Shown one piece after another: positions 24,668 through 59,762 of a stretch of DNA of 64,000 bases; position 1 is the first letter of the stretch; each line of letters starts with the position of its first letter. The translations under genes were made by a program, and so were the position numbers. This DNA comes from Fidelibacterota bacterium. GTDB lineage: Bacteria > Fidelibacterota > Marinisomatia > Marinisomatales > JAHJCW01. The notes under the pieces were generated by a model. That model made no database searches. It saw only the letters and a program-made list of their open reading frames with translations, and was not told the origin of the DNA. The DNA lies in the NCBI GenBank assembly GCA_042564205.1, contig JBHPLN010000003.1:20290-84289 (forward strand). The letters run 5' to 3'.

Positions 24668-24792
24668 TTAATTATAATCTAAAATGAACAACCAACGTAC
24701 ATTTGTCATAAATAGTCATATTTATAGCATTTTTATGTAAGAAAAAAGGGCAGTAAAAACTACTCTTTTTTATGTAGTTGTCATCAATCGGC

Positions 24793-24855
24793 GAGGAGTA
24801 CCCGAGGTCGGACTCGAACTGACACGCCTTTTAGGGGGCGAGGGATTATAAGTTC
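24793..24855 (-). repeat. Degenerate 3' half of tRNA-Leu(TAA), att-like copy 1
   Basis: Minus strand ACTTATAATCCCTC-variable arm-GTCAG TTCGAGT CCGAC CTCGGGT A CTCCTC; no D-arm or 5' acceptor strand. Confidence 0.85.
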
Positions 24856-25039
24856 TCTTCACATATCATCTGTTAATAATGTAGAGGTTTTAAACAAGTA
24901 CTTAAAGCGATATTACTTATATACCACAAAATCAGAGCTTTACTGTGGGAAAGCAGCCTTCGATGAGGAGTTACTTTCAGTATTAATTCAAAACACTATC
25001 TTATATTAGGCTTTCCATTAATATTTAAATGAAAGAAAA

Positions 25040-26032
25040 TTATTCAAATACATTATCTAGTCTAGGTTTACTTTTTACTATATCCTCAATTTTACTTATT
25101 AATTCATCAGTAAAGTCAATTGATTTATCAATAATACTCAGGTTATCTTTCAACTGGTCCAACCTTGAAGCCCCGAGTATAATCGTGCTAACATTTCTAT
25201 TTTTTGCACACCAAAATAACGCTAAATGATGTACTGATATATCAAGTTCTTGAGCAATTATTTTTAATTTTTCAGTTTTATCTATCTTAGCACGACCTTC
25301 AGGATTATCGAATTGATTCTTCAACCATTCGTAATTTTTAAGATTTAGTCTACTTTCCTTTGGAATACCATCTTTATATTTACCTGTTAATATCCCACTT
25401 GCTAATGGTGACCAGATAGTAGTTCCTAGTCCAAAATTATCATACAAAGGCAGATAGTCCTTTTCGACTTTTTCCCTCTGAAAAAAATTATATTCAGGTT
25501 GTTCCATTGTTGGAGGTGTTAAACCATATTCTTTAGCAATACAATGGGCTTCAGTTATTTGTTGTGCATTCCATTCGGATGTACCCCAATATAATATTTT
25601 CCCTTGAAGTATAAGATTATGCATTGCACGGACTGTTTCTTCTATTGGTGTATTCGGGTCAGGTCTATGACAGAAATATAAATCTAAATACTCTACTTGC
25701 AGTCTTCTTAAGGCAGCATTGCAAGCGTCTACTATATGTTTATTGCTTAATCCACGCTGAGTAGGTTTATCCCCTCCCCAAAATACTTTACTTGAAACAC
25801 AGTATGAATCGCGAGACCAGGCTAATTCCTTCAGTACTTTACCCATTACAACTTCAGAATCTCCCATCATATAAGCTTCAGCATTGTCAAAGAAATTGAT
25901 TCCATTGTCATATGCATATGTCATTAATTCTTTTGCCAACTTCACTTCAACCTGATTAGCGAATGTTACCCATGAACCATATGAATACAAGCTTAGTTTT
26001 AATCCTGAATTTCCTAGTCTTCTATATTCCAT
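25040..26032 (-). CDS. Aldo/keto reductase (Kv-beta-like)
   Basis: MEYRRLGNSGLK, FFDNAEAY, SSKVFWG, DLYFCHRPD, YWGTSEW, WSPLASG. Confidence 0.93.
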   Translation of the reverse strand: MEYRRLGNSGLKLSLYSYGSWVTFANQVEVKLAKELMTYAYDNGINFFDNAEAYMMGDSEVVMGKVLKELAWSRDSYCVSSKVFWGGDKPTQRGLSNKHIVDACNAALRRLQVEYLDLYFCHRPDPNTPIEETVRAMHNLILQGKILYWGTSEWNAQQITEAHCIAKEYGLTPPTMEQPEYNFFQREKVEKDYLPLYDNFGLGTTIWSPLASGILTGKYKDGIPKESRLNLKNYEWLKNQFDNPEGRAKIDKTEKLKIIAQELDISVHHLALFWCAKNRNVSTIILGASRLDQLKDNLSIIDKSIDFTDELISKIEDIVKSKPRLDNVFE

Positions 26033-26179
26033 TTTTGCTCCAAGTGATTTATTTTAATATCATGTTTCCTATTAATTTAACAAATTTAATTTGGCCTATA
26101 GTTATTTATAATTGAAGCATCTATCCAGTGTGGAAACCGATAACATCTTAAATAGACTTTTATGTTGTAGTCAATCTTT

Positions 26180-26236
26180 GAGGAGTACCCGGGGTCGGAC
26201 TCGAATCGACACGCCTTTAGGAACGTGGGATTTTAG
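26180..26236 (-). repeat. Degenerate 3' half of tRNA-Leu(TAA), att-like copy 2
   Basis: gaggagtacccggggtcggactcgaatcgacacgcctttaggaacgtgggattttag. Confidence 0.85.
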
Positions 26237-26387
26237 GCAAATTGTATTGAGTAATTATCTTTTTGTATAGCTACACTTACAGCATTTTGTGTTTTTCTTT
26301 TACCTGTTGTTGCAGCAGCAATATTATAATTAAAGTGCCATGTCAACAATCTGAATGAAGCTTTTAATTCTCATTTTTATTTTATAA

Positions 26388-27470
26388 TTATCTCTGCACC
26401 CTCGCAGATCCACCCTTAGCAAATTCTTCAACTTCAGGTAATTTTGCCATTGTTACATCACCAGGAAATGTAGTGGATAATGCACCATGAGCCCATCCTA
26501 ATCGTAGTGCTTCTTCTGGACTTCTTTCTGTTAACATTCCATAAATCAAACCAGATGCAAAACCATCACCACCGCCAATTCTGTCAAGGACTTTCAATTC
26601 ACAGGTAGGGCTAATATAATTTTTATTGTTATACCACAGAACAGATCCCCACTGATGGTGATTAGCAGTTTGCACTTTTCTGAGAGTAGTAGCTACCATC
26701 TTAATATTCGGAAATTCGTTTATAACATCGCCAATCATTTGGAAAAATATGTCAGTATCTAATTTTGACTTTTTCTCTACCTCGGGTCCTTTGATTCCTA
26801 ATCCAAGTTGCAAATCTTCTTCATTCCCAATAAGCACGTCTACATTTTTTACTATTTGTCTCAAACTTTTTTGAGCTTGCTTTAATCCTCCGATAGATTC
26901 CCAAAGTTTTGCTCGGTAGTTCAAGTCAAACGATGTAATTGATCCATGATCTTTTGCAACTTGCATAGCTTCTATGATTAATTTAGAAGTGGACTTAGAT
27001 AATGCTGCATATATACCACCCGAATGAAACCATCGAATTCCATGGTTAAAAATATCTTCCCAATCAAAATCACCAGGTTTTAACATTGCCCCTGCCTCAT
27101 TCGCACGATTATAAAAAACAACTGGTGGACGAATGCCGTACCCAAGATCACTATACACAGTAGCTATATTCGGTCCACGAGCACCATCGTGCTCAAACCA
27201 TTTATAAAAAGGTTTTACACCCATTTCTTTTACACGCGTTTGAACAAGTTCTCCAATACCATAATCGACCATTGCTGTTGCAATACCTGTTTTAAATCCA
27301 AAACAGTCAGCTAGATTGGCAGCAACATTGTATTCACCCCCTGAAACATGGATATTGACTGATCGTGCTTTTCTGAAGGGAATTCTACCTGGATCTAATC
27401 GATGAACTAATGATCCAAGTGAAAGAAAATCCAATAAATAGTTATCATTTTTAATTTTTAGTTTAGCCAT
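26388..27470 (-). CDS. PfkB-family sugar kinase (KdgK-like)
   Basis: SGGEYNVA, FDLNYRAKLW, GNEED, DRIGGGDGFASG. Confidence 0.88.
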   Translation of the reverse strand: MAKLKIKNDNYLLDFLSLGSLVHRLDPGRIPFRKARSVNIHVSGGEYNVAANLADCFGFKTGIATAMVDYGIGELVQTRVKEMGVKPFYKWFEHDGARGPNIATVYSDLGYGIRPPVVFYNRANEAGAMLKPGDFDWEDIFNHGIRWFHSGGIYAALSKSTSKLIIEAMQVAKDHGSITSFDLNYRAKLWESIGGLKQAQKSLRQIVKNVDVLIGNEEDLQLGLGIKGPEVEKKSKLDTDIFFQMIGDVINEFPNIKMVATTLRKVQTANHHQWGSVLWYNNKNYISPTCELKVLDRIGGGDGFASGLIYGMLTERSPEEALRLGWAHGALSTTFPGDVTMAKLPEVEEFAKGGSARVQR

Positions 27471-27553
27471 TATTTAATCCTTTTGTTTAAAACAATGATG
27501 TATTGTTCCTATTTTCGGGACATAGCGGATCGAATGATGATTTATACTCTTGA

Positions 27554-29005
27554 TTAAACTGAATACGTTGTCGAAGACGTATCTCCTCCGCGACCTGTCC
27601 AATTTGTATGAAAATATTCACCACGCGGTTTATCAACTCTTTCGTATGTATGTGCACCAAAATAGTCACGTTGTGCTTGTAATAAGTTGGCAGGTAATCG
27701 CTCAGAACGATATCCATCATAATATGCCAATGCTGAACAAATAGCTGGCATAGGAACACCAATCTTTACTGCATTCATTACAACTCGGCGCCACGCACCT
27801 TGAGCACCGATTACAGCGTCCCTAAAAAATGGATCCAATAACAAATTTTCAAGTCTTGGATTGATATCAAATGCTTCTTTTATTTTCCCCAAAAATATTG
27901 AACGAATTATACAACCACCACGCCACATTAGGGCAATGCCACCATTATTAAGATTCCAGCTATAACTTTTTGCAGCAGCTTGCATAAGTTGATATCCTTG
28001 TGCATACGATACAATTTTTGATGCATATAAGGCTTCTTCCAAATCGTCAATAATTTCATTTTTAAGACCTTCAAAATTAATTTTAGGTCCACTTAGTAAT
28101 TTGGAAGCCTTTACTCGTTCATTTTTAAGGGCAGAAAGACAGCGTGCAAAGACTGCTTCACCGATTAATGTTAGCGGCATACCTTCGTCTAAAGCTGCAA
28201 TTGCGGTCCATTTCCCGGTTCCTTTCTGTCCAGCTGTATCAAGAATTTGATCAATTGTAAAATTACCATCTTCGTCCTGGTAACCTAAAATATCTCGCGT
28301 GATTTCGATTAAGTAACTATTAAGTTTACCATTATTCCACCGATTGAATACTTCTGCCATTTCTGTATTTGACATACTCAGTCCATATTTCATCATTTGA
28401 TATGTTTCACAGATCATTTGCATGTCACCGTATTCAATACCATTATGCACCATTTTTACAAAATGCCCTGCACCATTTTCTCCTACCCATTCACAGCAAG
28501 GATCACCATCATCTGTATGAGCAGCTATTTTTTGGAATATATGTTTAACAAATGGCCACGCTTTTTTTGAACCACCGGGCATTATAGAAGGCCCCCTCAG
28601 TGCGCCTTCTTCTCCGCCGGAGACACCAGTCCCAATATATAATAATCCTTTACTCTCAACATATTTTGTACGTCTAATAGTATCCGGGAAATAACTATTC
28701 CCCCCATCAATAATAATATCACCATTCTCTAGATGCGAAATTAACATCTCAATGAAATCATCCACTGCTTTTCCCGCTTTTACAAGTAATATCACTTTTC
28801 TAGGTGTTTCTAGACTATCCACTAATTCTTTAATACTATAATATCCACTAATATTTTTACCTTTTGCTCTACCTTTAATAAAATTGTCAACTTTCGAGGT
28901 AGTGCGATTATAGACTGCAACAGAAAATCCCTTACTTTCTAGATTTAAAACTAAGTTTTCACCCATTACAGCCAATCCAATTAATCCAATCTGCGAATTA
29001 TTCAT
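27554..29005 (-). CDS. gnd: NADP-dependent 6-phosphogluconate dehydrogenase
   Basis: GLAVMG, YNRT, DGGNS, GVSGGEEGA, KMVHNGIEYGDMQ, QRDYFGAHT. Confidence 0.98.
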   Translation of the reverse strand: MNNSQIGLIGLAVMGENLVLNLESKGFSVAVYNRTTSKVDNFIKGRAKGKNISGYYSIKELVDSLETPRKVILLVKAGKAVDDFIEMLISHLENGDIIIDGGNSYFPDTIRRTKYVESKGLLYIGTGVSGGEEGALRGPSIMPGGSKKAWPFVKHIFQKIAAHTDDGDPCCEWVGENGAGHFVKMVHNGIEYGDMQMICETYQMMKYGLSMSNTEMAEVFNRWNNGKLNSYLIEITRDILGYQDEDGNFTIDQILDTAGQKGTGKWTAIAALDEGMPLTLIGEAVFARCLSALKNERVKASKLLSGPKINFEGLKNEIIDDLEEALYASKIVSYAQGYQLMQAAAKSYSWNLNNGGIALMWRGGCIIRSIFLGKIKEAFDINPRLENLLLDPFFRDAVIGAQGAWRRVVMNAVKIGVPMPAICSALAYYDGYRSERLPANLLQAQRDYFGAHTYERVDKPRGEYFHTNWTGRGGDTSSTTYSV

Positions 29006-29037
29006 ATAAATACCTCTTTTAAATATTCAGGAATTGC

Positions 29038-29802
29038 CTATACACAGGCAAGCATGCCACCATCAACATATACAAGATGACCGTTCACATAATCAGATGC
29101 ATGAGATGACAAGTAGATTAATGTGCCAACTAGTTCTTCCGGATCACCCCATCTATTTGCTGGTGTTCTATTACGCAACCATTTGTCAAATTCTTTATCC
29201 TCATATAAGCTTTGAGTCATTGCAGTCTTGAAATAACCTGGAGCTATCCCGTTAATTTGAATATTATATTTTCCCCAATCCGTTGCCATTCCTCTTGTTA
29301 GATTTCTCAAGCCCCCTTTTGTTGTAGTATATGGTGCGATTGACGGTCGAGCAAGCTCACTCTGCATAGAACAGATATTGATTATCTTTCCGGTTTTTCT
29401 TTCAATCATATTTTTAACAACAGATTTGGAAACGAGAAAAGCACCGGTTAGATTGATATCAATTAAACTCTGCCAATCAGTAAGTTTAAAATCTTCAAGC
29501 TGACCTCTAATTTGAATACCAGCATTATTTACCAGGATATCGATAGTACCTACGGCTTTTTCAATATTGTCTATGCTAGTTTTAATTTGATCTTCATCAC
29601 GTACATCGAATACAACGCCGTGAGCATTAAATCCTTCCTTTTTCAACTTGTCGACTGTCTTATTAAGTCTATTTTCAATAATATCATTTAAAATGACTGT
29701 ACACCCAGCGTCGGCTAAGCCTTTTGCAAGTATATACCCGATCCCTTGTCCAGAACCAGTTACTAAAGCAATCTTGCCTGATATATCAAATAAGTTATTC
29801 AT
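29038..29802 (-). CDS. SDR, gluconate 5-dehydrogenase (IdnO)-like
   Basis: TGSGQGIG, NNAGIQIR, NICSMQSELARPSIAPYTTTK, NGIAPGYFKT, RTPANRWG. Confidence 0.85.
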   Translation of the reverse strand: MNNLFDISGKIALVTGSGQGIGYILAKGLADAGCTVILNDIIENRLNKTVDKLKKEGFNAHGVVFDVRDEDQIKTSIDNIEKAVGTIDILVNNAGIQIRGQLEDFKLTDWQSLIDINLTGAFLVSKSVVKNMIERKTGKIINICSMQSELARPSIAPYTTTKGGLRNLTRGMATDWGKYNIQINGIAPGYFKTAMTQSLYEDKEFDKWLRNRTPANRWGDPEELVGTLIYLSSHASDYVNGHLVYVDGGMLACV

Positions 29803-29805
29803 TAC

Positions 29806-31821
29806 TTACTCCGATAAATTTATTTCATCAAAGTTTTCTTTGATTCTCTTATAAATTTTTGCAGATGTAAATCCGAAATGGTCTGCCATCACTGATTCGG
29901 GTGCTGATTCCCCAAAAGTTTCCTGAGAAATTATTAGTCCGTCTTTACCAACAAATTTTTGCCAACCTAATCCTACACCTGCTTCAATACTTACTTTGAG
30001 CTTAGCTTTCCCGTTAAGAATTGAATTTCTATAATTTTCATCCTGAGCAGCAAATAATTCCCAGCTTGGTACTGAAAATAGACGCACAAATAATCCATCA
30101 TTCGCTAGCATTTTTGCAGCTAAGAATGAAGTATTTATTTCAGATCCCGAGGCATATATTTCAACATCAACTTGTTTTTTTAAATCACCGTAAAGTAAAT
30201 ACGCCCCTTTCTTCAAACCTTCGCGTGCAAATTTTTTGGTGCGATCACGGGCTGTTGATTTAACAGGCTGTCGCGTAAAACAGATCGCTACAGGTCCATT
30301 CTGAATTTCCAATGCTTTTGACCAAGCAACCTTTGCTTCATTTTCATCTCCTGGACGAAGCACTGTGAGGTTCGGTATTAATCTTAAAGACATTAAATGT
30401 TCGATCGGCTGATGTGTTGGTCCATCCTGCCCTATTAGAATTGAATCATGCGTGAAAATGTAAATGACTCTTTGTTTCATCATTGCAGACATGCGAATAG
30501 CATTACGTATATAATCAGAGAATACGAGGAATGTGCCGATAACCGGGCGGATCATTCCGTGAAGACTCATTCCATAGGCTGCTGCAGCCATACAAAATTC
30601 CCGAACGCCAAACTTAATTTGCTGATGATTCCAGTTGTTAGGTTGCACAATTTTATTTCCAGGTAACCAGGTGAAATCAACACTTGCAACATCGGCTGAA
30701 CCTGAAATTAAGTAGGGGAGCATTTCAGCGGCTTTTGCGATGATAGCTTCGTTATATTTTCTTGTAGGCTGATCCGAATTGATATCTAAATTCCATATTT
30801 CTTCTTCAAAATCAGTCGGTAATATTTTCTCCGAAAATATATTCCATAGTTTAGCTTTAGAAGAATCATTTGATTTCATTTTTTCATATTGCACGTTCCA
30901 ATTTTTTTCATACTGCTCAAATTTCGACTGCAATCTTTCCATATAGTTCGTCACTTCCTCAGGGATATAAAACGGAGTATTTGACCATCCTATAGCTTTT
31001 TTAAAACCTTCCATTTCAGGACCCAAGAAATTACCGTGACTTTTATTGGAGCCAGCCCTTGTTGGAGAATGTTTTCCTATGATTGTCTTGACAATTATCA
31101 ATGTTGGGCTACGTTTTTCATCCTTTGCGATTTTAAATGCAGTTTCCATTTCTTCAAAATTGTACCCATCAATCTGCATCACATTAAAACCAAATGCTTT
31201 GTATCGTTTAGCAACATCTTCTTTAAAACATTCATCAGTTGGTCCATCTAGGCAAATATCATTGGAATCATATAAAATCACTAAGTTATTCAATCCAAGT
31301 GTACCAGCAAGACTTCCTGCCTCATAACTGATGCCTTCCATCATACAACCATCGCCAGCTAAGATATAAATTTTGGATCCAAACAATTCTTCACCAAATC
31401 TTGCCGCTAACAATTTTTTAGAAATAGCCATGCCAGTTCCAGCAGCTAAGCCTTGACCGAGTGGGCCCGTTGTAACCTCGACACCTGGTGTAATTCCATA
31501 TTCAGGGTGCCCAGGAGTTTTAGAATGAAGCAGACGAAAATCTTTTATATTATCAATTGAAATATTGTATCCGCAAAGATGCAATAGTGCATATTGTAAC
31601 ATAGACCCATGCCCTGCAGACAAAACAAATCTATCACGTCCCATCCAATTCGGATTTTTTGGATTGTGCTTCATTACTTTAGTATAAAGAAATGTTCCTA
31701 CTTCTGCAGCACCTAAAGGTAAGCCGGGATGCCCAGATTTTTGTTGTTCAATAGCGTCAGCCGATAGTGCTCTAACAGTATGGGCAATTTTTTGTAATAT
31801 TTTTTTTTCTATATTATTCAT
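29806..31821 (-). CDS. tkt: Transketolase
   Basis: SGHPG, DRFVLSAGHGS, TPGHPE, GDGCMMEG, FGVREF, THDSI-GQDGPTHQP. Confidence 0.96.
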   Translation of the reverse strand: MNNIEKKILQKIAHTVRALSADAIEQQKSGHPGLPLGAAEVGTFLYTKVMKHNPKNPNWMGRDRFVLSAGHGSMLQYALLHLCGYNISIDNIKDFRLLHSKTPGHPEYGITPGVEVTTGPLGQGLAAGTGMAISKKLLAARFGEELFGSKIYILAGDGCMMEGISYEAGSLAGTLGLNNLVILYDSNDICLDGPTDECFKEDVAKRYKAFGFNVMQIDGYNFEEMETAFKIAKDEKRSPTLIIVKTIIGKHSPTRAGSNKSHGNFLGPEMEGFKKAIGWSNTPFYIPEEVTNYMERLQSKFEQYEKNWNVQYEKMKSNDSSKAKLWNIFSEKILPTDFEEEIWNLDINSDQPTRKYNEAIIAKAAEMLPYLISGSADVASVDFTWLPGNKIVQPNNWNHQQIKFGVREFCMAAAAYGMSLHGMIRPVIGTFLVFSDYIRNAIRMSAMMKQRVIYIFTHDSILIGQDGPTHQPIEHLMSLRLIPNLTVLRPGDENEAKVAWSKALEIQNGPVAICFTRQPVKSTARDRTKKFAREGLKKGAYLLYGDLKKQVDVEIYASGSEINTSFLAAKMLANDGLFVRLFSVPSWELFAAQDENYRNSILNGKAKLKVSIEAGVGLGWQKFVGKDGLIISQETFGESAPESVMADHFGFTSAKIYKRIKENFDEINLSE

Positions 31822-31834
31822 TTATTCTGTTTCT

Positions 31835-33157
31835 TTAAAATATGTTCTTGACAATTTCAACAATTGACTGCACTGATTTTATTGTTCCCCAAATTGCAAG
31901 CACAAATAAAAAAGCCATAAGAACATTTTCCCACCATTTATTTTTATATTTCGGTCCAATCAAACGGGAGCTTGCGGTAATCCACCATAGCCCACCAGCC
32001 AATGCTGGAATAAGCAGCACCATACTTGTATTGGCCAATAAAGTCAATGTGACAAAATCTGCTTTGTTAATAGCTATCCAACCAAGTGGAGAAATAAAAA
32101 TCCAAATTGCAATATATTTATATATAGGTTGTTCTTTATAATCTATAGCTGTTTTAGCACCATTTCGATTTTTCCATCGATGAAATGCATGACTTCCAAG
32201 ATAACCAAGCCCAAGTCCGTTACCAAGTAGTGATGTGTAAACTGCAGCAAACATACCCAACAGAAAAAGAATTCTACCGCTATCTCCTAAAACAATGCTG
32301 AGAAGATAAGTGAGATCATCTAGCGTTTCAATTGGTTTCCCACCGGCATGGACAAGTTCTGCACCTAATGTCCAAACAGCCAAATTAAAAATGATCATTG
32401 CAAAAATGGCTAAAGTAAAATCATATGTTTGCAAGCGTCGATATTTTGGCCCTATCCAGCCTTTTTGTTCTAAAAAATAAGGATATACAAGATTCATCAA
32501 AGATCCACCTACAGCGCCTATCATAGCCATTGCAACTGCCATGGCACCGAATGGTCCTTGTTGAGCAGGAAGTTGAAATGTGAATGTACCTTTCAATATC
32601 CCAGTAATATTGGGACCAACCCATATTGCAGTACCTACTAATGAAACTGTTAATAAAATTAAGAATAACTTAAATACTAACTCAGCACGACTATAAATAG
32701 GCCGGAAAACGATGATCAAACCAATCACAACCCAAAATATTGCCCATTGCAATGTGCTACCAACTCCAGTAATCCGTATCATCGTTTCACCAACACCAGC
32801 AAGTAAATAAGTACCATTAATGTGTCCGACAACAAACACTACAATTAAAAGAAAGGGAGCGAATAATGGATGTAACCTAACTAAACCATCCAAAACTCCT
32901 TCATTATGTTGGTTACAGAGTTGATATTTTGCAATGGTTGTTACAAAAAAGAAGCGCAACAAAAGTGCAAAAACCATTGCCCACATCAAGGCATAACCAT
33001 AATTTCCTCCAGAAACACCTGCAGAAATAATATCACCCGAACCAAGCCAGGTTAGAATAATTACAAAACCAGGGCCAAATGATTTTAGGTATCCAAAAAA
33101 TGTTGTGGGGATAGCCGCCGTTTTAATTTGAGCTCCGTTTTCATTCGAATCGTTCAT
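31835..33157 (-). CDS. NRAMP-superfamily-like transporter without the DPGN motif
   Basis: GPGF...WLGSGD...GGNYGYALMW, about 11 TM segments. Confidence 0.75.
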   Translation of the reverse strand: MNDSNENGAQIKTAAIPTTFFGYLKSFGPGFVIILTWLGSGDIISAGVSGGNYGYALMWAMVFALLLRFFFVTTIAKYQLCNQHNEGVLDGLVRLHPLFAPFLLIVVFVVGHINGTYLLAGVGETMIRITGVGSTLQWAIFWVVIGLIIVFRPIYSRAELVFKLFLILLTVSLVGTAIWVGPNITGILKGTFTFQLPAQQGPFGAMAVAMAMIGAVGGSLMNLVYPYFLEQKGWIGPKYRRLQTYDFTLAIFAMIIFNLAVWTLGAELVHAGGKPIETLDDLTYLLSIVLGDSGRILFLLGMFAAVYTSLLGNGLGLGYLGSHAFHRWKNRNGAKTAIDYKEQPIYKYIAIWIFISPLGWIAINKADFVTLTLLANTSMVLLIPALAGGLWWITASSRLIGPKYKNKWWENVLMAFLFVLAIWGTIKSVQSIVEIVKNIF

Positions 33158-33277
33158 AAAACACCTTTGTTAATAATTCCAGAAACGTATAATAATGCAA
33201 TTGCGAAATAAAAATCTGAAAATCCCACTTTATTGATTTCAATCTCCCTTTATTAATTGTTTAGGTCATTTTATTAT

Positions 33278-34972: not shown

Positions 34973-34975
34973 ATT

Positions 34976-37816: not shown

Positions 37817-37837
37817 AGCAGGTTCCTGAGCAATATA

Positions 37838-46565: not shown

Positions 46566-46586
46566 AACCGTATTAATAGGATATTT

Positions 46587-49364: not shown

Positions 49365-49451
49365 TTCAGTTCCTCCTTTTTTATTGTCACTATTCACTAT
49401 ATTTATCAGTATTCAGTGACATCATTTCTTAATTAAGAAAAATAGTCATTT

Positions 49452-51257: not shown

Positions 51258-51283
51258 AATATCCCTTTATATAATATTATCCT

Positions 51284-52075: not shown

Positions 52076-52093
52076 TTTGTTTAATATTTAGTC

Positions 52094-52135
52094 ATCCCAA
52101 CCAGATATAATACGATTATGGGATACAACTATCAA
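52094..52135 (-). promoter_or_regulatory. Putative promoter TTGATA-N17-TATTAT overlapped by ATCCCA/TGGGAT inverted repeat
   Basis: -35 at 52130-52135, -10 at 52107-52112; inverted arms at 52094-52099 and 52119-52124. Confidence 0.4.
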
Positions 52136-52223
52136 GATAATATTAATTATTTTTAAAAAATATTTTCCTTATAGCAAGCACTATTTGCAGACCAATTTGT
52201 TAGAAATTATATGAAGTTTTATG

Positions 52224-53456
52224 TTATCTTTTTTCTACAGTGAAGTATGTTCCCCATAACTCTTCGAAATTATTTTCTCCTACTTCATAGTAAACCTGGA
52301 TTTGATCAGGTGCTGTTTCTTCAACAAAATTAGTTGCGCCTCCGGCACCAAACTGAAATGCGCCTTTCCACGATTTGCCATTATCATCGGAAAAGATCAG
52401 CCAATTCCCGGGACGACTATATGTACAAACAAGGATTCCATTGCTCAGTGTAATAACACTTGGACAAACACCCCTATCAGCGATCTGTTCGGGAGGCGAC
52501 CAGGTTTTACCGTCGTCACTGGAGCGGGAACAGTAAAGTGGTGTTGGAAAAAGATTAACTCCCATTTTTGGATTACGTCCGCCTGAACGCATCACACAGA
52601 CCAGATCACCATTTGATGCAATAGTGAGATCCGACTCACGGAATCCTTCCATCGTGATAGCCGGAACCAGCATAGGTCTGCCGGCACGACTTTCGGGAAT
52701 ACTCTTCCCAACCATGTCATGATCGAGAGGAATCCCGCGTCCCAGCATTTTATCATAAGCTACATGTACGTGATCTCCCCATGTCTTTCCTTTATCCTTA
52801 GAAAATACGACCACTGTGCGGTATTTTCTCTGATTCAGTTCACTTGGATATCCAGCGCACAAAAGTACATCGCCTTCATAGTTACCATACATACTACCAA
52901 CAAGATCGCCGTTGGGAAGTTGTACAAGACCATGATGGAACAGAAAACCATCAACACGACCGCCGCTTCCCGTAACAGTATAAGATGCATTGGGTATATC
53001 CAGTTCAGCCTGTTCGGTTTCTATCGTTTTCCAATTATCTGTTGATCGCTTCAAACGTAATGACAATTTACCGTCCGGGCGCCTCTTCGAATTGCGTCCG
53101 ATACTGAGTATCTCACCATTTCCAAGATCAAGAGCTGTCTTATCAATCTGTACTTCCGGCCCCGCTTGCCAAGTTAATCCATTATCATATGACCACATCG
53201 AATTTTCCCCATTTCCAGTGACGATACGGCCGTCTTTGAATTGAAAAGCCTGTGCAGTTTTAATTGGCAGTGGCGTGTTAATTATGACAGATTTTTCAAG
53301 TTTAACATCAATCCCAACAATATCTGGAATTACAATATTATAATCTTGAGCAACTATCGTTTGGAAATTAATTTGAAGTATAATAAAACTAATGACAGTA
53401 ATATTGCGATTTCGATTTGATATTTTGTGAATAAAGTATTTTAATGTTTTTACCAT
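52224..53456 (-). CDS. BNR/Asp-box (sialidase-fold) protein
   Basis: SYDNGLTW, SKDKGKTW, SSDDGKTW, SDDNGKSW. Confidence 0.82.
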   Translation of the reverse strand: MVKTLKYFIHKISNRNRNITVISFIILQINFQTIVAQDYNIVIPDIVGIDVKLEKSVIINTPLPIKTAQAFQFKDGRIVTGNGENSMWSYDNGLTWQAGPEVQIDKTALDLGNGEILSIGRNSKRRPDGKLSLRLKRSTDNWKTIETEQAELDIPNASYTVTGSGGRVDGFLFHHGLVQLPNGDLVGSMYGNYEGDVLLCAGYPSELNQRKYRTVVVFSKDKGKTWGDHVHVAYDKMLGRGIPLDHDMVGKSIPESRAGRPMLVPAITMEGFRESDLTIASNGDLVCVMRSGGRNPKMGVNLFPTPLYCSRSSDDGKTWSPPEQIADRGVCPSVITLSNGILVCTYSRPGNWLIFSDDNGKSWKGAFQFGAGGATNFVEETAPDQIQVYYEVGENNFEELWGTYFTVEKR

Positions 53457-53561
53457 TTATTCCTCCATATATATGTAATAATAAAATTTTACTGTCATCA
53501 AATTATGGCAAAATGATTATTCTATCATAATTGAATTATTCACATTTGTTTTATTTCAACT

Positions 53562-56252
53562 TCAATATTTAAGATTTCTTTTAAAAGTGTGAAAACCAGA
53601 GCCTACATTGTCAAAAACAATAAAGTCACCATCTCGATCTAGTATCCCATTAACAATATGTCCATCAACTTCGACTTCTGTACCACTATTGTGCATTTTC
53701 TTAATAAAGACTTTTGCTGTTGTATTGGCAGGAATATTTATTCCCACATCATAGGTTTTGGCATTTAAAGTAACATTGACATGGACTGTTCCCCTGATCG
53801 TTGGAAAATCAATATTTGCAAATTTGAGATTCCCTATTTGTGGTTTAATCGATATTTTCTTAAATCCCGGTTCAAGAGGATTTATTCCCATAAGTCCTCT
53901 CTGTATCATATTGCCAGCAGAACTTCCCCACGTATGGCTCTTAGACATATCAAGTTTACCGGAAGGATCCCAGGCTTCAGTAGTATTTGCAGCATTCAAT
54001 TCATGCATTACATGATACCATGAATTTTTGTCTTTAGAGACAATTAATTCCAATGCTTTTGCACCCTGATTTAATTTATACAGAGACCCTAAATAAAATT
54101 GTGATCCGAAAACACCACAGTCCATATTTCTAGTAACAAGATAACTCGCAATATCGTCTTTTATTTCTTCCTCAACTAGATCAAAAAATATGGGAAAAAA
54201 CGAAGAGTGAAAGGCTGCATGGGAAGCATTGATACCATCAATGTATCTCTTAATCTTCTTGCTGTAAAATGTTTTATTGTAACTATTTTTAATAGAGTTA
54301 GCCAGTTTACCAATTTTAACGCTCTCGGCAGAATAATTTTGATTAGGATAATAATGATCCAGATATCCAGCCATCTTAGAAAGATGATTATAAGCATAGT
54401 AATTCCATCCATTTAATACATTATCAATGAAGGTGTTATTGGGATCATCATCCTCATAATTATAACCGTCAAGGTATGGTGGTGGCCAATCAAGTGCGGA
54501 GGCAGCAATATTTTCAATTAAGAAATTCGTACTACAGTCAACATCATATTTTTTTTCTTTTAATAAATCCCAATGCTGCTTTATCGATTCAATATTTCCC
54601 GTATAAAGAAAATCTTCCCACGCCATTAATATTGACTGCATTTTATATTCATGTGGCCAAGTAGGTTCAAAGTATTGATACTCTGATGCAAATCTGGCGA
54701 GGGCATATTCCCTATCCATCGTGTACGAAGTCATCTGCTGAATTATTGCACCGCCTTCATAAGCTAGTCTTTCATTCTGTGGAGTATCCCAGTAAAAATC
54801 AACATTAAGATGCTTGATGCTTTTTTTGCAGAATTCATATATTTCATCAAGTAGAGGATTTGAACTAGAAAAACTTCCGGCCTTATCATTAAAAGGATTC
54901 CTTATTGCCACAAATTTTATATTTGAATCGTCAAGAATGTCTAAGCCTTCATATCCCCTGATCTGCAATGAATCGGTCCAGACGTAGCCCACTTCATCAA
55001 GGATCTGGGAACTCTCGTTGATAATCCATTTGCTCCAGTCAATTGCAGTCCATGGATAAATATCTCTTTCACCCCTGATTGTAATAGTATCGCCTGGAGA
55101 AGCATTATCGAGTTTTAGCCTAAGCCAACCGAAGTTGCCTCCGCCTAAAGAAATATCATAATCACCATTCCCAAGATATTCAATTGTTTTTGGAGTGATT
55201 TCCTCAATTTCAAACGGAAGTTTAGATACAGCCATAAGTCTATCATAATATTGATGTCTCTCCCTAGCATTCTCCCAATCGCTATCATCAAATGCTGTTG
55301 TCATCCAGCCAACAGGCATTTTTCTCGAGTCGATACTCTCATAAGGATCAACATAGTGATAGGCATTAGTGGTTTTTGTACCGTGAGGATTGTAAATGTA
55401 TTGCGCATTGTATGATTTCCATGTTTGATCAGTAATAATAGTTGTGTCGCTATTCTCATATTGAATATGTAACTGCATCAAAAAACTTTTTTCTTTTAAC
55501 GATGATTCACATATCGCAGAGAATACATTAACAGAATTATTAATTAGATATTCAGTAACATCATAGCCAAGATAAGTTACCTTATCGTGATAACCCTGGA
55601 AAGGCCCAATGCCAACTAATTGGCTATTTATATAGAATTTATAAGCGGGAGATTTCTGAATCCGGGCATCCATTGAGGTAACAAAAGCAATCGCGTATTT
55701 TATTTTTTCCTTTGGTAGAGTTAACTTTTTCCTGAAATATGCAAAATCGCCAACATCTTCATTTGGCTTATTTGAACCATCCCAAATTGGTTTGGCAATC
55801 CAGTCAGAAAAACCTAATGATTTAATAAACCTGCCAGTTGAAGAATATGGACTCATATTTCCATCTTTATCCCAGTTTCTCACTTTCCAAAAATATAATT
55901 TACCATTCTGTAATTGTACACTCTCTTTGCCGTAAGATACATTTATTGATTCATCACTTTTTACTATACCAGAGTCCCACATGTCTCCTTCATTGTTCAT
56001 CAATTTTTCTATACTAGATGCGACCAATATTTGATATGCAGTCTGATATTCATTTTTATCTGTGTCATTCATTATCCAGCCGAACTCCGGATGGGTATCA
56101 GCTACCAGAATTACATCTGTTCCATTATTGGCAATTTCAATAGTTAATCCGGTGGGAGTATCTGGGTCAGCCGCAAATAATTGAATATTAAAAAGGAAAA
56201 TTCCAATGATAATATTGAATACTCTGATTTTCAAATTGTAAATATTAATCAT
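53562..56252 (-). CDS. GH78-like alpha-L-rhamnosidase
   Basis: QTAYQILVASS...MWDSG, YFWKVRNWD, DTPQNER, TTEAW, SHTW, GINPLEPGFKKISIKPQ, PTIRG. Confidence 0.85.
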   Translation of the reverse strand: MINIYNLKIRVFNIIIGIFLFNIQLFAADPDTPTGLTIEIANNGTDVILVADTHPEFGWIMNDTDKNEYQTAYQILVASSIEKLMNNEGDMWDSGIVKSDESINVSYGKESVQLQNGKLYFWKVRNWDKDGNMSPYSSTGRFIKSLGFSDWIAKPIWDGSNKPNEDVGDFAYFRKKLTLPKEKIKYAIAFVTSMDARIQKSPAYKFYINSQLVGIGPFQGYHDKVTYLGYDVTEYLINNSVNVFSAICESSLKEKSFLMQLHIQYENSDTTIITDQTWKSYNAQYIYNPHGTKTTNAYHYVDPYESIDSRKMPVGWMTTAFDDSDWENARERHQYYDRLMAVSKLPFEIEEITPKTIEYLGNGDYDISLGGGNFGWLRLKLDNASPGDTITIRGERDIYPWTAIDWSKWIINESSQILDEVGYVWTDSLQIRGYEGLDILDDSNIKFVAIRNPFNDKAGSFSSSNPLLDEIYEFCKKSIKHLNVDFYWDTPQNERLAYEGGAIIQQMTSYTMDREYALARFASEYQYFEPTWPHEYKMQSILMAWEDFLYTGNIESIKQHWDLLKEKKYDVDCSTNFLIENIAASALDWPPPYLDGYNYEDDDPNNTFIDNVLNGWNYYAYNHLSKMAGYLDHYYPNQNYSAESVKIGKLANSIKNSYNKTFYSKKIKRYIDGINASHAAFHSSFFPIFFDLVEEEIKDDIASYLVTRNMDCGVFGSQFYLGSLYKLNQGAKALELIVSKDKNSWYHVMHELNAANTTEAWDPSGKLDMSKSHTWGSSAGNMIQRGLMGINPLEPGFKKISIKPQIGNLKFANIDFPTIRGTVHVNVTLNAKTYDVGINIPANTTAKVFIKKMHNSGTEVEVDGHIVNGILDRDGDFIVFDNVGSGFHTFKRNLKY

Positions 56253-56560
56253 CTGATTTTCTCCGAATTATTGCAAACCTTTTATAAACAAAATACGTTT
56301 AGTATATCGTTTTTCCATTAAAGAAAGTTATAGGAAATTATATAATTATTTATTCTCAATAGAACAATAATAAATTGGGAAAAAACAAGTAATATATCTG
56401 TTTAATAATGGTTTAATGTATGATTGTACGCTTAGCAATTCAACAGTACATGAAATTCAATTACATTTCAGTTTTTAGCACTTTAATAACTGTTGATATA
56501 TTGTGCACTATAGTGGATAAAAAATTAACCTAGTGGTTATGTATTTTGTCGTCGATCTTT

Positions 56561-56620
56561 GAGGAGTACCCGGGGTCGGACTCGAACCGATACGAGTTCT
56601 TAACTTGAGAGATTTTAAGT
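56561..56620 (-). repeat. Degenerate 3' half of tRNA-Leu(TAA), att-like copy 3
   Basis: Minus strand ACTTAAAATCTCTC...ATCGG TTCGAGT CCGAC CCCGGGT A CTCCTC; intact TAA anticodon loop, no 5' half. Confidence 0.88.
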
Positions 56621-57152: not shown

Positions 57153-58538
57153 ATGACAAAGATACTTATTCGGATTCTTCTATTAACATGCACAGTATTT
57201 TTTGTTTCACAGATTAGCGCTCAAAATGTTGAAGCAAAACTGGGCGGTAATACAGCTGCTGAGGCTTTTGTAGTACAAAACTCAGACGGAACAATTCTTT
57301 TTAAAATCCAAGGTGATGGTAGAGTTGGGATAGGAGAACCAAATCCAGGATTTAAATTGCACGTTTTACAAGATCTTCCTGGAGAACCAGGATCATTTGT
57401 TATGCATATTGGAGATGGACCTGCTGGACAATTCATCATAACTGATCCCAATAATGGTCATCCGGGAATAATTAGTGAACATCATGGTGTTGGTCCAGGG
57501 ATTCATTCTGCAAAGCTTGGCGAAGGTGGGTATGCTGGAGAATTTGTAACTGGTAATCCAAACAACCAGGACCCCGTATTAAGAGCAGAGCATCATGGTC
57601 AAGGACCTGCTGGACAATTTATTGTTACACCTCCTGACAACCAATCACCCACACTAATTAGTGAAAATCACGGTGTTGGAACATCTGGATTATTTATTGC
57701 GACAAATCCTGACAACCCATCAGCCGCACTAACTAGTGAAAATCATGGTGGTGGTCCAAGTGGACAATTTGTTTTAACACATCCTGACAACCCATCACCC
57801 ACACTAATTAGTGAAAATCACGGCAGTGGGCCAGGAATTTTTGCAGTGAAACATAGTATTAATGGATTCGCGGGAGAATTTCTTACGTTCAATAATGATA
57901 ATAATGATCCAGTTATAAGAGGTGAGCATCACGGTGGCGGTCCTGTTGGACAATTTACCACAGTAAATTCTGACAACAGTGCACCTACAATTATCAGTGA
58001 AAATAACGGCGTTGGTCCGGGCATTCATGCCATTAAACATGGTGTGGGTGGACCCGCTGGAGAATTTTTAATAGTTAACCCCATCAATGATGCACCAACC
58101 ATAAGAGCTGAACACCATGGCGAAGGGGCTGTATTAGAAGCCCAAAACTTTGGGAATGGCAATGCTGGAAGATTCGGGATTGAAAATGGAGCAAGCACAA
58201 GAACCACAATTTATACTTATAATAGAGGTAATGGACCAACTATTGTTGGAAATAATATGGGCGGAGGCTCTTCTGCTATATTTCGAAATAGAAATGTTCC
58301 TGGTAATCCTGATCCGGTTCTAATTGTAGAAACAGAAGGATCAGGTCCAGCCATTCAAGCAGATAGTAATGTTGAAATTGAGTTTGGCGATCTAACAGGA
58401 GATCCAGATGTTGAACTCGGCCAAGGGACTTCTGACCCTAATGTATCTTACCTGGCCTTAAGAAGTCCAGATGGTACAAAATATTACATCACAGTCGACA
58501 ATGGTGGTCTTTTATCAGCTTCCACTACTAAACCATAG
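57153..58538 (+). CDS. Secreted repeat protein, probable trimeric beta-fibre/adhesin
   Basis: Signal peptide; GRVGIG motif; eight 25-aa repeats ending E(H/N)(H/N)GxG; C-terminal LRSPDGTKYYITVDNGGLL. Confidence 0.7.
   Translation: MTKILIRILLLTCTVFFVSQISAQNVEAKLGGNTAAEAFVVQNSDGTILFKIQGDGRVGIGEPNPGFKLHVLQDLPGEPGSFVMHIGDGPAGQFIITDPNNGHPGIISEHHGVGPGIHSAKLGEGGYAGEFVTGNPNNQDPVLRAEHHGQGPAGQFIVTPPDNQSPTLISENHGVGTSGLFIATNPDNPSAALTSENHGGGPSGQFVLTHPDNPSPTLISENHGSGPGIFAVKHSINGFAGEFLTFNNDNNDPVIRGEHHGGGPVGQFTTVNSDNSAPTIISENNGVGPGIHAIKHGVGGPAGEFLIVNPINDAPTIRAEHHGEGAVLEAQNFGNGNAGRFGIENGASTRTTIYTYNRGNGPTIVGNNMGGGSSAIFRNRNVPGNPDPVLIVETEGSGPAIQADSNVEIEFGDLTGDPDVELGQGTSDPNVSYLALRSPDGTKYYITVDNGGLLSASTTKP
57632..57823 (+). 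repeat. Near-identical 42 bp direct repeats 150 bp apart inside the fibre-like gene
   Basis: tcctgacaacc(a/c)atcacccacactaattagtgaaaatcacgg at 57632 and 57782. Confidence 0.9.
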
Positions 58539-58547
58539 GAACCTGTA

Positions 58548-59522
58548 ATGAGCAGATTAGTAAAAATCTGTCTTGCTATGATCCTCCTCAGTGGATTCGT
58601 TACATCTCAGGAGAACTTGTTTATTATTAATGGTTCGGATAATGCAGCCACCTCGTCGCACGTTTCAGTCACAGCCAACGGTGACAACAAGGCACAACTG
58701 TGCGCTGATGAAATCTTAATTTCAGGACAAGCAACAATTTCAACCTGGGGACCTGAAGCTACCTGTGGGATATTAATAGGGACACTGGTATATGTAGAAA
58801 TTGACATCATGCCAGGCGATGAATCTAATTTAATCAATTGTACAAAAGAGACTGGTGTACTCCCTGTAGCCATACTTTCTACTTCCAGTTTTAATGCAAC
58901 AACGATTGATCATACAACAGTTCGTATTGGAAAAGGTGGTACTTGGGCTGCTGAAAAACATATTAATAAAAAAACCGGTATTCCAAAGCGTCACGTAGAG
59001 GATGTGGATGAAGATGGGGACATGGATCTAGTATTCCATTTTAAATACGGTGAAACTGGAATTACATGCGAGGATACTGATGCCTGTTTAAGAGGTGAAA
59101 CCTACAGCGGTACTGTAATCACCGGCTGTAGTCCAATTTCTATTGAAATTAAAACTTCCACAAAACTAATAGTAGATACTGAAGAAACAAAAGATGTAGA
59201 TATGACAGAAACCGCTGAATCGATGGATATATTGAAGCTACCAGAAAAGTACTCATTGGGATCAAATTATCCAAATCCCTTCAATCCTATAACAACGATC
59301 AAATACCAGTTACCAGAAAATAGTTATGTAACTCTCACCATTTATGATATTATGGGAAGAGAAATACGACAATTGATTAATCAGAGTCAACAAGCTGGAT
59401 TTAAATCAATAATATGGGATTCGAAAGATCAATATGGTAAATCTGTGAGCGGAGGAGTTTATATTTATCACCTCCAGGCTGGATCATTTAGTAAGTCAAT
59501 GAAGATGATTCTTTTAAAATAA
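58548..59522 (+). CDS. Secreted protein with IDIxPG-type domain and FlgD/T9SS-like C-terminal domain
   Basis: VEIDIMPG...GVLPVAIL...EDVDEDGDMDLVFHF; NYPNPFNP...WDSKDQYG...GVYIY...KMILLK. Confidence 0.8.
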   Translation: MSRLVKICLAMILLSGFVTSQENLFIINGSDNAATSSHVSVTANGDNKAQLCADEILISGQATISTWGPEATCGILIGTLVYVEIDIMPGDESNLINCTKETGVLPVAILSTSSFNATTIDHTTVRIGKGGTWAAEKHINKKTGIPKRHVEDVDEDGDMDLVFHFKYGETGITCEDTDACLRGETYSGTVITGCSPISIEIKTSTKLIVDTEETKDVDMTETAESMDILKLPEKYSLGSNYPNPFNPITTIKYQLPENSYVTLTIYDIMGREIRQLINQSQQAGFKSIIWDSKDQYGKSVSGGVYIYHLQAGSFSKSMKMILLK

Positions 59523-59550
59523 TGTAATCTTCCTATCTAATTAATAAAAC

Positions 59551-59587
59551 AATAGCCTCGGAAATTTTATCCGGGGCTATTACTTTC
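59551..59587 (+). terminator. Rho-independent terminator
   Basis: aatagcctcgga-aatttta-tccggggctatt followed by acttt. Confidence 0.7.
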
Positions 59588-59647
59588 AACCGAACGCTTC
59601 CTAATACTCTAGTATTCTTACCTTTATTTACTTACGTTATACAATAG

Positions 59648-59762
59648 TGTCATAAACTATCATATTTATAGCATTTTAAGGGAAGAAAAAAGGACAGTAA
59701 ATATTACCCTATTTTGTTGTTTTCTCATTAATCATTGGGGAGTACCCAGGGTCGGAATCAAA
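59648..59762 (-). repeat. Truncated tRNA-Leu 3' fragment (copy 4, 59737-59762) with about 90 bp flank homologous to the copy 1 flank
   Basis: ggggagtacccagggtcggaatcaaa; flank tgtcataaactatcatatttatagcatttt..gaaaaaaggacagtaa matches tgtcataaatagtcatatttatagcatttt..gaaaaaagggcagtaa at 24704. Confidence 0.82.

What the first reader, a model, noticed from the sequence alone, without database searches (positions are those of the whole stretch)
24704..59762. tRNA-Leu-anchored array of integrase-less gene cassettes (integron-like accretion platform)
Seen: four same-orientation degenerate copies of the 3' part of a tRNA-Leu(TAA) gene at about 24793, 26180, 56561 and 59737. Each lies exactly between functionally unrelated gene blocks: one aldo/keto reductase, a 30 kb catabolic locus, a two-gene fibre unit, then a further block. 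Similarity extends beyond the tRNA end: CTCCTC-like in all copies, AAAGAT.GAC in copies 2 and 3, about 90 bp in copies 1 and 4. No integrase, transposase or phage gene is in the window. Established: tyrosine integrases insert into tRNA 3' ends and displace a 3' fragment, and tandem islands can build up this way. Inference: these are minimal att-flanked cassettes of roughly 1.3-30 kb, mobilised in trans by one integrase beside an intact tRNA-Leu upstream (beyond 64 kb), in effect a tRNA-att-based integron analogue.
Basis: partly seen in the sequence, partly recalled or inferred. Interest (0 to 1): 0.85.

Follow-up and report, generated by a model that had tools for sequence, protein, structure and literature searches.

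The report
Decayed tRNA-Leu integration island array
This is a stack of old mobile-element insertions behind a leucine tRNA gene in an uncultured marine bacterium, each marked by a leftover tRNA half; it is a known kind of gene-exchange hotspot seen here in a new bacterial group, not a new integron-like machine.

Summary
Four same-strand copies of the 3' part of a minus-strand tRNA-Leu(TAA) lie at window 24793, 26180, 56561 and 59737. A fifth lies on another contig. They bound an aldo/keto reductase gene, a 30 kb sugar-catabolic locus and a two-gene unit. "No integrase in the window" is wrong: residues 301-352 of a 354-aa tyrosine integrase survive at 60426-60575, just beyond copy 4. The intact tRNA is not in this 57%-complete assembly. 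In all 9 other genomes of the family the same tRNA, where assembled, has conserved genes on its 5' side and a hypervariable array of tRNA halves and cargo on its 3' side. No intact integrase sits beside the tRNA in any of them; one has a remnant. Metagenome contigs carry the complete element: excisionase-like, replication-like, excisionase-like genes and an integrase whose stop codon abuts a tRNA-Leu half. Cargo proteins are 83-90% identical between genera, against a genome background of about 56%. Best reading: serial integration of tycheposon-like elements, followed by loss of their mobility modules. Trans- or cis-mobilisation of the leftover cassettes is not excluded. Integron membership fails.

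The parts
24701..24792 (-). Flank F of copy 1. About 90 nt downstream of the tRNA 3' end, with a terminator-like hairpin, a T run and TGNCATAT-type direct repeats.
   Evidence: Aligns to the flank of the intact tRNA-Leu of G001 (query positions 88-183). Homologous flanks lie at copy 4, at C56 and in G006/G008.
24793..24853 (-). Copy 1: tRNA-Leu(TAA) 3' half, from the anticodon loop to the 3' end. The anticodon reads TAT and the T stem has one mismatch.
25040..26032 (-). Cargo block 1: aldo/keto reductase, 330 aa.
   Evidence: Pfam PF00248, E 4e-66. 83% aa identity to the gene next to the outermost fragment in G008.
26158..26235 (-). Copy 2: tRNA-Leu 3' half plus about 25 nt of native-type flank.
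   Evidence: 32-nt exact run shared with copy 3 and with the G001 tRNA.
26388..56252 (-). Cargo block 2, a 30 kb catabolic locus. It encodes PfkB kinase, 6-phosphogluconate dehydrogenase, SDR, transketolase, an Nramp-like transporter, a NosD-like protein, two FG-GAP proteins, a PhoD-like protein, a DHDPS-family lyase, a TonB-dependent receptor, a T9SS-tailed protein, an IclR regulator, a BNR protein and alpha-L-rhamnosidase.
   Evidence: Pfam. The left end is shared with G008 (88% and 86% aa). The right 18 kb is colinear with G006:C11 (65-90% aa).
56542..56620 (-). Copy 3: tRNA-Leu 3' half (anticodon TAA intact) plus 28 nt of flank identical to the G001 tRNA flank.
   Evidence: 49-nt exact run with G001.
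57153..59522 (+). Cargo block 3: a 461-aa protein with no family match, and a 324-aa protein with a FlgD-Ig-like domain and a T9SS sorting tail.
   Evidence: Pfam. Paralogues on C56 at 44-59%.
59650..59736 (-). Flank F' of copy 4, homologous to flank F of copy 1.
   Evidence: 78% identity over 125 nt with the copy 1 unit.
59737..59783 (-). Copy 4: degenerate and truncated, keeping the T loop to the 3' end.
   Evidence: nhmmer E 9e-7. blastn-short hit at 59739-59756. Sequence read.
59818..60234 (-). Response-regulator receiver gene (138 aa) between copy 4 and the integrase remnant. Presumed cargo of the element that displaced copy 4.
   Evidence: Pfam PF00072. The cargo role is inferred from position.
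60405..60614 (-). Tyrosine-integrase pseudogene. The homologous part, 60426-60575, covers residues 301-352 of 354 (RHTFA...LLGH...Y). The N-terminal 300 residues are missing.
   Evidence: tblastn: 83% to P0004, E 9e-20; 77% to P0001; 75% to the G004 remnant.
60646..64000 (.). Further block: a GT4-family glycosyltransferase, an ICMT-like methyltransferase and others. It runs to the contig end 6 kb past the window, with no further fragment, tRNA or integrase.

Best explanation
The locus is the 3'-side island of a tRNA-Leu(TAA) gene in a Marinimicrobia-type bacterium. It was built by serial site-specific insertion of small integrative elements of the tycheposon-like kind. Each element carries a tRNA-like attP: the anticodon loop to the 3' end, plus a terminator flank. 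On insertion it supplies a new 3' half to the tRNA and pushes the previous half, with all older insertions, outward. The complete element has an excisionase-like / replication-like / excisionase-like / integrase module, and the integrase stop codon abuts the att core. This module lies in one contiguous piece, so a single deletion removes it and leaves cargo flanked by tRNA halves. In the window three blocks have lost the module entirely. A fourth keeps the last 52 codons of the integrase. What is shown: the repeats, their tRNA identity, the integrase remnant, the family-wide arrays, the intact elements elsewhere, and the excess similarity of cargo between genera. What is inferred: the order of events, deletion as the route to integrase-less blocks, and the arm motifs acting as protein-binding sites.
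For: The repeats are tRNA-Leu(TAA) 3' halves, all on the tRNA strand. By eye, each of copies 1-3 has its own variable arm with intact pairing, so they come from different sources rather than from duplication. An integrase remnant lies at 60426-60575. Intact 354-aa homologues exist in public data at 90-94% identity to the G004 remnant. In metagenome contigs L097 and L098 they follow HTH_17 excisionase-like genes and a gene matching phage replication-initiator families, and they end 3-12 nt before a tRNA-Leu half. G004 has a tRNA, a truncated flank, an integrase remnant (residues 265-354) and a short fragment. All 10 of 10 family genomes gave hits to the tRNA+flank query. Same-strand fragment arrays are seen in G002, G004, G005, G006 and G008. 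The tRNA 5' side is syntenic in genus g3 while the 3' side differs in every genome. Cargo is 83-90% identical between genera, whereas 0 of 41 and 0 of 55 background protein pairs reach 86% (median 56%). The preprint 10.1101/2020.12.28.424599 (passages read) describes the same pattern in Prochlorococcus: tandem elements separated by partial tRNAs, with fragmented integrases and partial tRNAs scattered through islands.
Against: Only 2 of about 16 blocks examined (window, G002, G004, G005, G006, G008) keep a clear integrase remnant, plus one 18-residue hint at E 0.09. Random decay should leave more. The copy nearest the presumed tRNA (copy 4) is the most degenerate, whereas simple accretion predicts it to be the youngest. 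G008 has AKR and PfkB in one gap-free gene run with no inner fragment where the window has copy 2. Three copies of the long flank in one genome (copies 1 and 4, and C56) are not predicted by a single linear array. The intact tRNA and its 5' neighbours are not in this assembly, so the array's anchor is inferred from relatives and from one contig loose end.
Confidence: 0.78

Rival explanations
1. The integrase-less blocks are still functional, att-flanked cassettes. They would be excised, shuffled and transferred by the integrase of an incoming 'engine' element, in cis after accretion or in trans. The array would then work as a cassette platform.
For: Most blocks lack any integrase trace. In genus g3, blocks of 2-5 genes are flanked on both sides by well-kept units: a conserved island-side motif (ATTAGCAGATAGC...), a tRNA half 88-100% identical piecewise to the G001 tRNA, and an 85-110 nt flank. 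The MoCo-Fer2 pair occurs in three different contexts, once exactly between two fragments. L097 shows an engine element directly beside an integrase-less three-gene cassette with its own att ends. L114 shows the same integrase end beside different cargo with homologous att ends. One contig loose end in another sample joins a different tRNA half to copy 3's island side.
Against: No excision product or empty site was seen; one search gave no joints, and contigs only. The window's copies are degenerate: one T-stem mismatch each in copies 1-3, truncation of copy 4, and flanks cut to about 28 nt at copies 2 and 3. No intact integrase is present in this assembly or on any relative's array contig. 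Conserved att ends are equally expected from recent common descent of the elements.
Confidence: 0.17
2. The repeats arose without site-specific integration, by segmental duplication or homologous recombination that spread a tRNA-3'-end-plus-terminator segment. The gene blocks would be native.
For: The long flank recurs three times in one genome. Nucleotide homology of cargo with relatives is confined to coding sequence.
Against: Each copy has a different variable arm, and similarity ends at the anticodon loop as expected of an att crossover. An integrase remnant is present, and intact integrases abut the same tRNA half elsewhere. Cargo identity between genera is far above background.
Confidence: 0.05

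Closest known systems
Tycheposons and the tRNA-anchored genomic islands of Prochlorococcus (preprint 10.1101/2020.12.28.424599; passages read)
   Same: Insertion is at a specific tRNA. Elements sit in tandem, separated by partial copies of that tRNA. Fragmented integrases and further partial tRNAs lie deeper in the island. The elements have small integration and replication modules plus metabolic cargo, and the host is a streamlined marine bacterium.
   Different: The phylum differs: record titles of related loci read Candidatus Neomarinimicrobiota, and the preprint text does not mention Marinimicrobia or SAR406 (0 occurrences). The target is tRNA-Leu(TAA). Whether the integrase belongs to the tycheposon clade was not tested. 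The replication gene is only a weak PHROG match. One cargo block is 30 kb.
Tandem genomic islands at tRNA/tmRNA genes with displaced 3' fragments. One example is the ssrA islands of Dehalococcoides (PMC3146451, seen in a search listing only). The general tRNA-integration literature is recalled, not read.
   Same: Direct repeats of the gene's 3' end bound successive islands on the 3' side of an intact gene.
   Different: Here most islands have lost the integrase completely, and the blocks can be as small as one gene.
CIMEs (cis-mobilizable elements) of streptococcal ICEs. The term was seen in search listings; the mechanism is recalled.
   Same: They are att-flanked and integrase-less, thought to derive from integrative elements by deletion, and can be moved when an integrase-bearing element inserts beside them.
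   Different: No conjugation context exists here and mobilisation was not shown. The att site here is a tRNA half.
Integrons
   Same: An ordered array of exchangeable gene units separated by a repeated recombination site.
   Different: There is no IntI beside an attI and no attC hairpin sites. The units are multi-gene and carry their own regulators and mixed orientations. The repeat is a tRNA half.

Membership tests
tRNA-integrated tandem genomic islands (tyrosine recombinase) | Same-strand direct repeats of the 3' part of one tRNA gene bounding the blocks | tested here: met
   four copies in the window, all on the tRNA strand.
tRNA-integrated tandem genomic islands (tyrosine recombinase) | Intact copy of that tRNA at the 5'-most end of the array | tested here: inconclusive
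   Not in this assembly: 24 tRNAs and no Leu(TAA). Met in relatives G002, G004, G006 and G008. One contig loose end in run X1 reads from the copy 2 core into an intact anticodon/D arm.
tRNA-integrated tandem genomic islands (tyrosine recombinase) | Tyrosine integrase gene, or its remains, inside the island | tested here: met
   Remnant at 60426-60575, E 9e-20. Present in 1 of 4 blocks only.
tRNA-integrated tandem genomic islands (tyrosine recombinase) | Block content varies between relatives, with breakpoints at the repeats | tested here: met
   homology with G008 and G006 ends within 10-41 nt of the coding sequences next to copies 1, 2 and 3.
Tycheposons | tRNA-specific tyrosine recombinase plus a small replication module plus cargo in one element | tested here: inconclusive
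   Seen in related metagenome contigs L097 and L098: integrase, HTH_17 excisionase-like genes, and a replication-initiator PHROG match at E 5e-10. The window keeps only the integrase remnant.
Tycheposons | Integrase falls in the tycheposon clade of tyrosine recombinases | not tested
   No tycheposon integrase sequences were at hand. A phylogeny is needed.
Integrons | IntI-type integrase next to attI, with a cassette promoter at the array start | tested here: not met
   PF00589 gave 0 hits in the own genome. The remnant lies inside the array and belongs to a tRNA-targeting clade.
Integrons | attC recombination sites (imperfect inverted repeats) after each mostly promoterless single-gene cassette | tested here: not met
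   The repeats are tRNA 3' halves. The blocks hold 1 to about 20 genes, including an IclR regulator, in both orientations.
CIME-like integrase-less att-flanked elements | Flanked by att sites and lacking an integrase | tested here: met
   Blocks 1-3.
CIME-like integrase-less att-flanked elements | Mobilised by a neighbouring integrase-bearing element | not testable with these tools
   The only hints are loose ends in contigs.

The most novel reading that the evidence does not exclude
In this Marinimicrobia family the tRNA-Leu(TAA) 3' side is a working cassette platform. A minimal 'engine' element (excisionase-like, replication-like, excisionase-like, integrase; the integrase stop codon sits in the att core) docks at the tRNA. 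Using the conserved arm motifs kept on both sides of each integrase-less block, it excises and carries off any run of neighbouring cassettes. Metabolic modules from 1 to 30 kb would then be shuffled between genera in an integron-like way, without each carrying its own recombinase.
Probability: 0.17. Interest if true: 0.7.

Novelty: new member of a known kind. Interest (0 to 1): 0.4.

Why it matters
Marinimicrobia (SAR406) are abundant and uncultured, and how they exchange genes is little known. This locus and its relatives show that one tRNA gene serves as the family's main docking site for foreign metabolic modules. Here those are a rhamnoside/sugar-acid utilisation locus, reductases and surface proteins, and whole modules have moved between genera. 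That extends the tycheposon-type island model from cyanobacteria to another streamlined marine phylum. There is also a practical point: assemblies of these genomes break at the repeated tRNA half, so such islands tend to be split or lost in MAGs.

Tried and rejected
Rfam at gathering threshold found only the six annotated tRNAs in the window and nothing at the repeats.

A PF00589 profile search of the own genome gave 0 hits, so it missed the 52-residue remnant. Only tblastn with close homologues found it.

tblastn with seven P0001-type integrases and with five further integrase-derived queries (one only an 18-residue fragment) found no more remnants in the window or in the relatives' arrays, at E up to 0.5-1.

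A search of 233 genomes of the order with P0001 found no intact close homologue. The best hits were 41-44% identical, plus the G004 remnant.

Of the 18 loci, 16 were scanned for tRNAs and 6 had one: Ala, Lys(TTT), Lys(CTT) and Arg(CCG) twice. Two Lys genes lie within about 320 nt of the integrase end. None sits by tRNA-Leu.

I looked for the tRNA's conserved 5' neighbours in the own assembly. Only one, a 647-aa homologue on C30, and two small ones on C34 were found, and none of these contigs carries the tRNA.

A profile search for a decayed outermost fragment near window 12.5 kb, where synteny with G002's backbone ends, found nothing.

Read laying on 23000-28000 (four runs, contigs only) gave no joints and no piece spanning the whole stretch. 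A part without cover there proves nothing. The loose ends are hints only. The 30 kb block could not be tested for excision, because both ends do not fit in one laid stretch and the cap is one call.

GC content differs little between blocks (0.33-0.38) and was not used as evidence.

Supplements of the tycheposon preprint, which list elements in other marine bacteria, could not be seen. They might already include Marinimicrobia.
Full report
**The observation.** None was expected in 100 shuffles. ARAGORN finds six tRNAs in the window and none at these places. Rfam agrees.

Read on the minus strand, the copies are the 3' part of a class II tRNA with anticodon loop CTTAAAA, that is tRNA-Leu(TAA). 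I aligned them to the intact tRNA-Leu(TAA) of relative G001:
- Copy 1 covers tRNA position 32 through 97 nt beyond the 3' end.
- Copy 2 covers positions 35-113.
- Copy 3 covers positions 32-110.

Copy 4 at 59737 keeps only the T loop to the 3' end plus a long flank. A profile of 26 fragments finds it at E 9e-7.

By eye, each of copies 1-3 has a different variable arm with intact stem pairing and one mismatch in the T stem. Copies 2 and 3 share a 32-nt exact run. Copy 3 shares 49 exact nt with the G001 tRNA and its flank. Copies 1 and 4 are 78% identical over 125 nt. A fifth copy with the long flank lies on contig C56.

**Genome context.** The window is G000:C23:20290-84289 of a 1.37 Mb, 57%-complete, 58-contig assembly. 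The contig ends 6,058 nt past the window. The assembly has 24 tRNAs, with no tRNA-Leu(TAA), tRNA-Cys or tRNA-Gly. T9SS sorting tails and TonB-dependent receptors occur among the genes. Eleven of 18 related loci returned carry record titles reading Candidatus Neomarinimicrobiota.

Block contents are as follows:
- An aldo/keto reductase.
- A 30 kb locus encoding PfkB kinase, 6-phosphogluconate dehydrogenase, SDR, transketolase, a transporter, FG-GAP proteins, a PhoD-like protein, a DHDPS-family lyase, a TonB-dependent receptor, IclR, a BNR protein and alpha-L-rhamnosidase.
- A two-gene unit: a protein with no family match plus a T9SS-tailed protein.
- A response regulator, a glycosyltransferase and further genes.

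**An integrase remnant is present.** A family-wide PF00589 search found a 101-aa open frame with the C-terminal part of a tyrosine recombinase in G004. It lies between the intact tRNA-Leu(TAA) and a short fragment. Used as a tblastn query, it hit window 60575-60426 at 75% identity. Full-length 354-aa homologues exist in public data. The window remnant matches residues 301-352 of P0004 at 83% identity, E 9e-20, and includes the RHTFA, LLGH and Y motifs. It lies on the tRNA strand, 640 nt beyond copy 4, with the response-regulator gene in between. No other remnant was found in the window with the 14 integrase queries used. A second, unrelated remnant lies on C20.

**The pattern is family-wide.** In relatives the intact tRNA-Leu(TAA) follows tRNA-Cys, and in G001 also tRNA-Gly. 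A blastn of tRNA plus flank against all 10 family genomes gave hits in all 10. It showed same-strand fragment arrays on the tRNA's 3' side in five genomes:
- G008: one fragment 38.8 kb from the tRNA.
- G002: one fragment at 26.5 kb.
- G004: three fragments within 11 kb.
- G006: three fragments within 11 kb, plus two on another contig.
- G005: four fragments on a 12.8 kb contig.

In G005 and G003 a contig ends exactly at tRNA position 46. This shows that assemblies break at the repeated half, and it explains the missing tRNA here.

ORF maps and all-against-all BLAST show conserved synteny on the tRNA's 5' side within genus g3. The content on the 3' side is different in every genome. None of these array contigs has an intact integrase.

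**Synteny breakpoints.** In G008 the outermost fragment is followed by the AKR gene (83% aa). Four genes absent from the window come next (MoCo-binding, 2Fe-2S, unknown, HAD), then PfkB (88%), a LarA-like gene and 6PGD (86%). In G004 the MoCo/2Fe-2S pair lies exactly between two fragments. In G006 it lies directly beside a fragment.

The window's 37838-56252 stretch is colinear with G006:C11 at 65-90% aa identity and ends at the rhamnosidase gene. Beyond that point the window has copy 3 and G006 has other genes. Nucleotide homology is 80-88% and stops within 10-41 nt of the coding sequences. The genes left of the array in G002 are homologues of window 7778-12461 (59-81%). The variable region here may therefore begin near 12.5 kb, but no decayed fragment was found there.

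**Cargo was exchanged between genera.** I compared ORFs from 200 kb each of G008 and G006 with the own genome. The 41 and 55 pairs with at least 80% coverage have a median identity of 56% and a maximum of 84.6%. None reaches 86%. Several cargo proteins in the array reach 86-90%. The caveat is that best hits in a 57%-complete genome include some paralogues, which lowers the median. The upper tail is the informative part.

**The complete element.** Metagenome contigs L097 and L098 hold integrases 92% and 89% identical to P0001. Upstream, on the same strand, lie:
- A roughly 200-aa ORF.
- An HTH_17/AlpA-like protein.
- A 107-154 aa ORF.
- A 173-180 aa protein matching phage replication-initiator PHROGs (E 5e-10 in L097; weak in L098).
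- A second HTH_17 protein.

The integrase stop codon is followed within 3-12 nt by a degenerate tRNA-Leu half and a hairpin, in L097, L098 and G004.

In L097 three cargo genes follow (GT2, hexapeptide transferase, BKACE). After them come a conserved island-side motif, a well-kept tRNA half and the long flank. L114 has the same integrase end, different cargo and homologous att ends (78% over 197 nt). L103, with a 51%-identical integrase, has the ATTAGCAGATAGC motif and a tRNA half within 125 nt of the stop. More distant integrases of the clade sit beside tRNA-Lys and tRNA-Arg, with a tRNA-Ala a few kb away in one locus.

**Mechanism.** In the tRNA sense the order is: tRNA, flank, mobility module ending in the integrase, then the displaced half. 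The module is contiguous. One deletion from the flank into the integrase therefore gives a block with att-like ends and no recombinase.

Three independent truncations fit this, each keeping only the integrase C-terminus: from residue 265 in G004, from residue 301 here, and an 18-residue hint in G005 at E 0.09. At copies 2 and 3 the flanks are cut to about 28 nt, which also fits. This is inference; no deletion was observed.

The pattern matches what the tycheposon preprint describes for Prochlorococcus islands (passages read). Two searches for such islands in Marinimicrobia came up empty. A four-term full-text search returned two papers, neither about this by title. The preprint text has no occurrence of Marinimicrobia or SAR406. 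Its supplements could not be read.

**What does not fit.** Several points remain open:
- Clear integrase remnants are rare, in 2 of about 16 blocks.
- Copy 4, presumably nearest the tRNA, is the most decayed.
- G008 has AKR to PfkB as a tight gene run with no inner fragment.
- The long flank occurs three times in this genome.
- Contig loose ends in other samples show an intact tRNA joined to the copy 2 core (X1), and a different tRNA half joined to copy 3's island side (X3). This suggests strain-level differences at the repeats, but it could not be followed up.

These points keep open the reading that leftover cassettes are moved by incoming elements, as CIMEs are. I give that 0.17.

**Verdict.** The locus is a tRNA-anchored, mostly decayed tandem island of a known kind, in a phylum where, in the two searches named above, I found none described. 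It is not an integron analogue by any defining feature that was tested.

Noticed in passing
window 23634-23683: A 29-46 nt intergenic repeat (...AATAGAATTTCATTTTAAGATTTAGTAGGT) has seven more copies in the own genome: C7, C34, C56, and C12 three times. In metagenome contigs it shows raised depth and several different flanks, one of them ending in a tRNA-like T arm.
   Followed up: partly
G000:C20:13188-13319 (outside the window): A second tyrosine-integrase C-terminal remnant, 83% identical to residues 307-342 of the G004:C15 integrase. This is a different clade member from the one in the window.
   Followed up: no
G000:C56:13621-13758 (outside the window): A fifth tRNA-Leu fragment with the long flank, on the + strand of a 46 kb contig. 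Its neighbours include an 840-aa protein with a Peptidase_S74 (endosialidase chaperone) domain, a URO-D-like protein and a LVIVD-repeat T9SS protein. Whether C56 belongs to the same array is unknown.
   Followed up: partly
L014 6856-10231 (G008:C7, left of its outermost fragment): GatD-like (asparaginase plus GatD_N) and GatE/GatB_N-like genes lie side by side. This is an archaeal-type amidotransferase pair in a bacterial genome.
   Followed up: no
window 24704-24760 and 59650-59700; L056 5740-5775; flanks in L008, L006, L007, L114: The long flank carries two or three direct repeats of TGNCATAT / TGTGACA type. The island-side arms in L097 and L114 carry GTAATAC direct repeats. Both look like arm-type binding sites, but nothing was tested.
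   Followed up: no
window 4804-9418: A cluster of six minus-strand tRNA genes: Ser-CGA, Glu-CTC, Arg-ACG, Gln-CTG, Ser-TGA and Ser-GGA. It lies in the conserved left backbone, and no fragments of these tRNAs were seen.
   Followed up: no
L061 (G006:C119, 2.5 kb contig): An intact 352-aa integrase of the wider clade is flanked by two DNA methyltransferase-like ORFs (one with a DPPY motif, judged by eye). There is no tRNA on the contig.
   Followed up: no
window 26219-26220 (read laying loose ends): In run X3 one contig continues from the copy 2 core into a copy 1-like variable arm joined to copy 3's island-side sequence. In run X1 one contig continues into an intact tRNA-Leu anticodon/D arm.
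   Followed up: no
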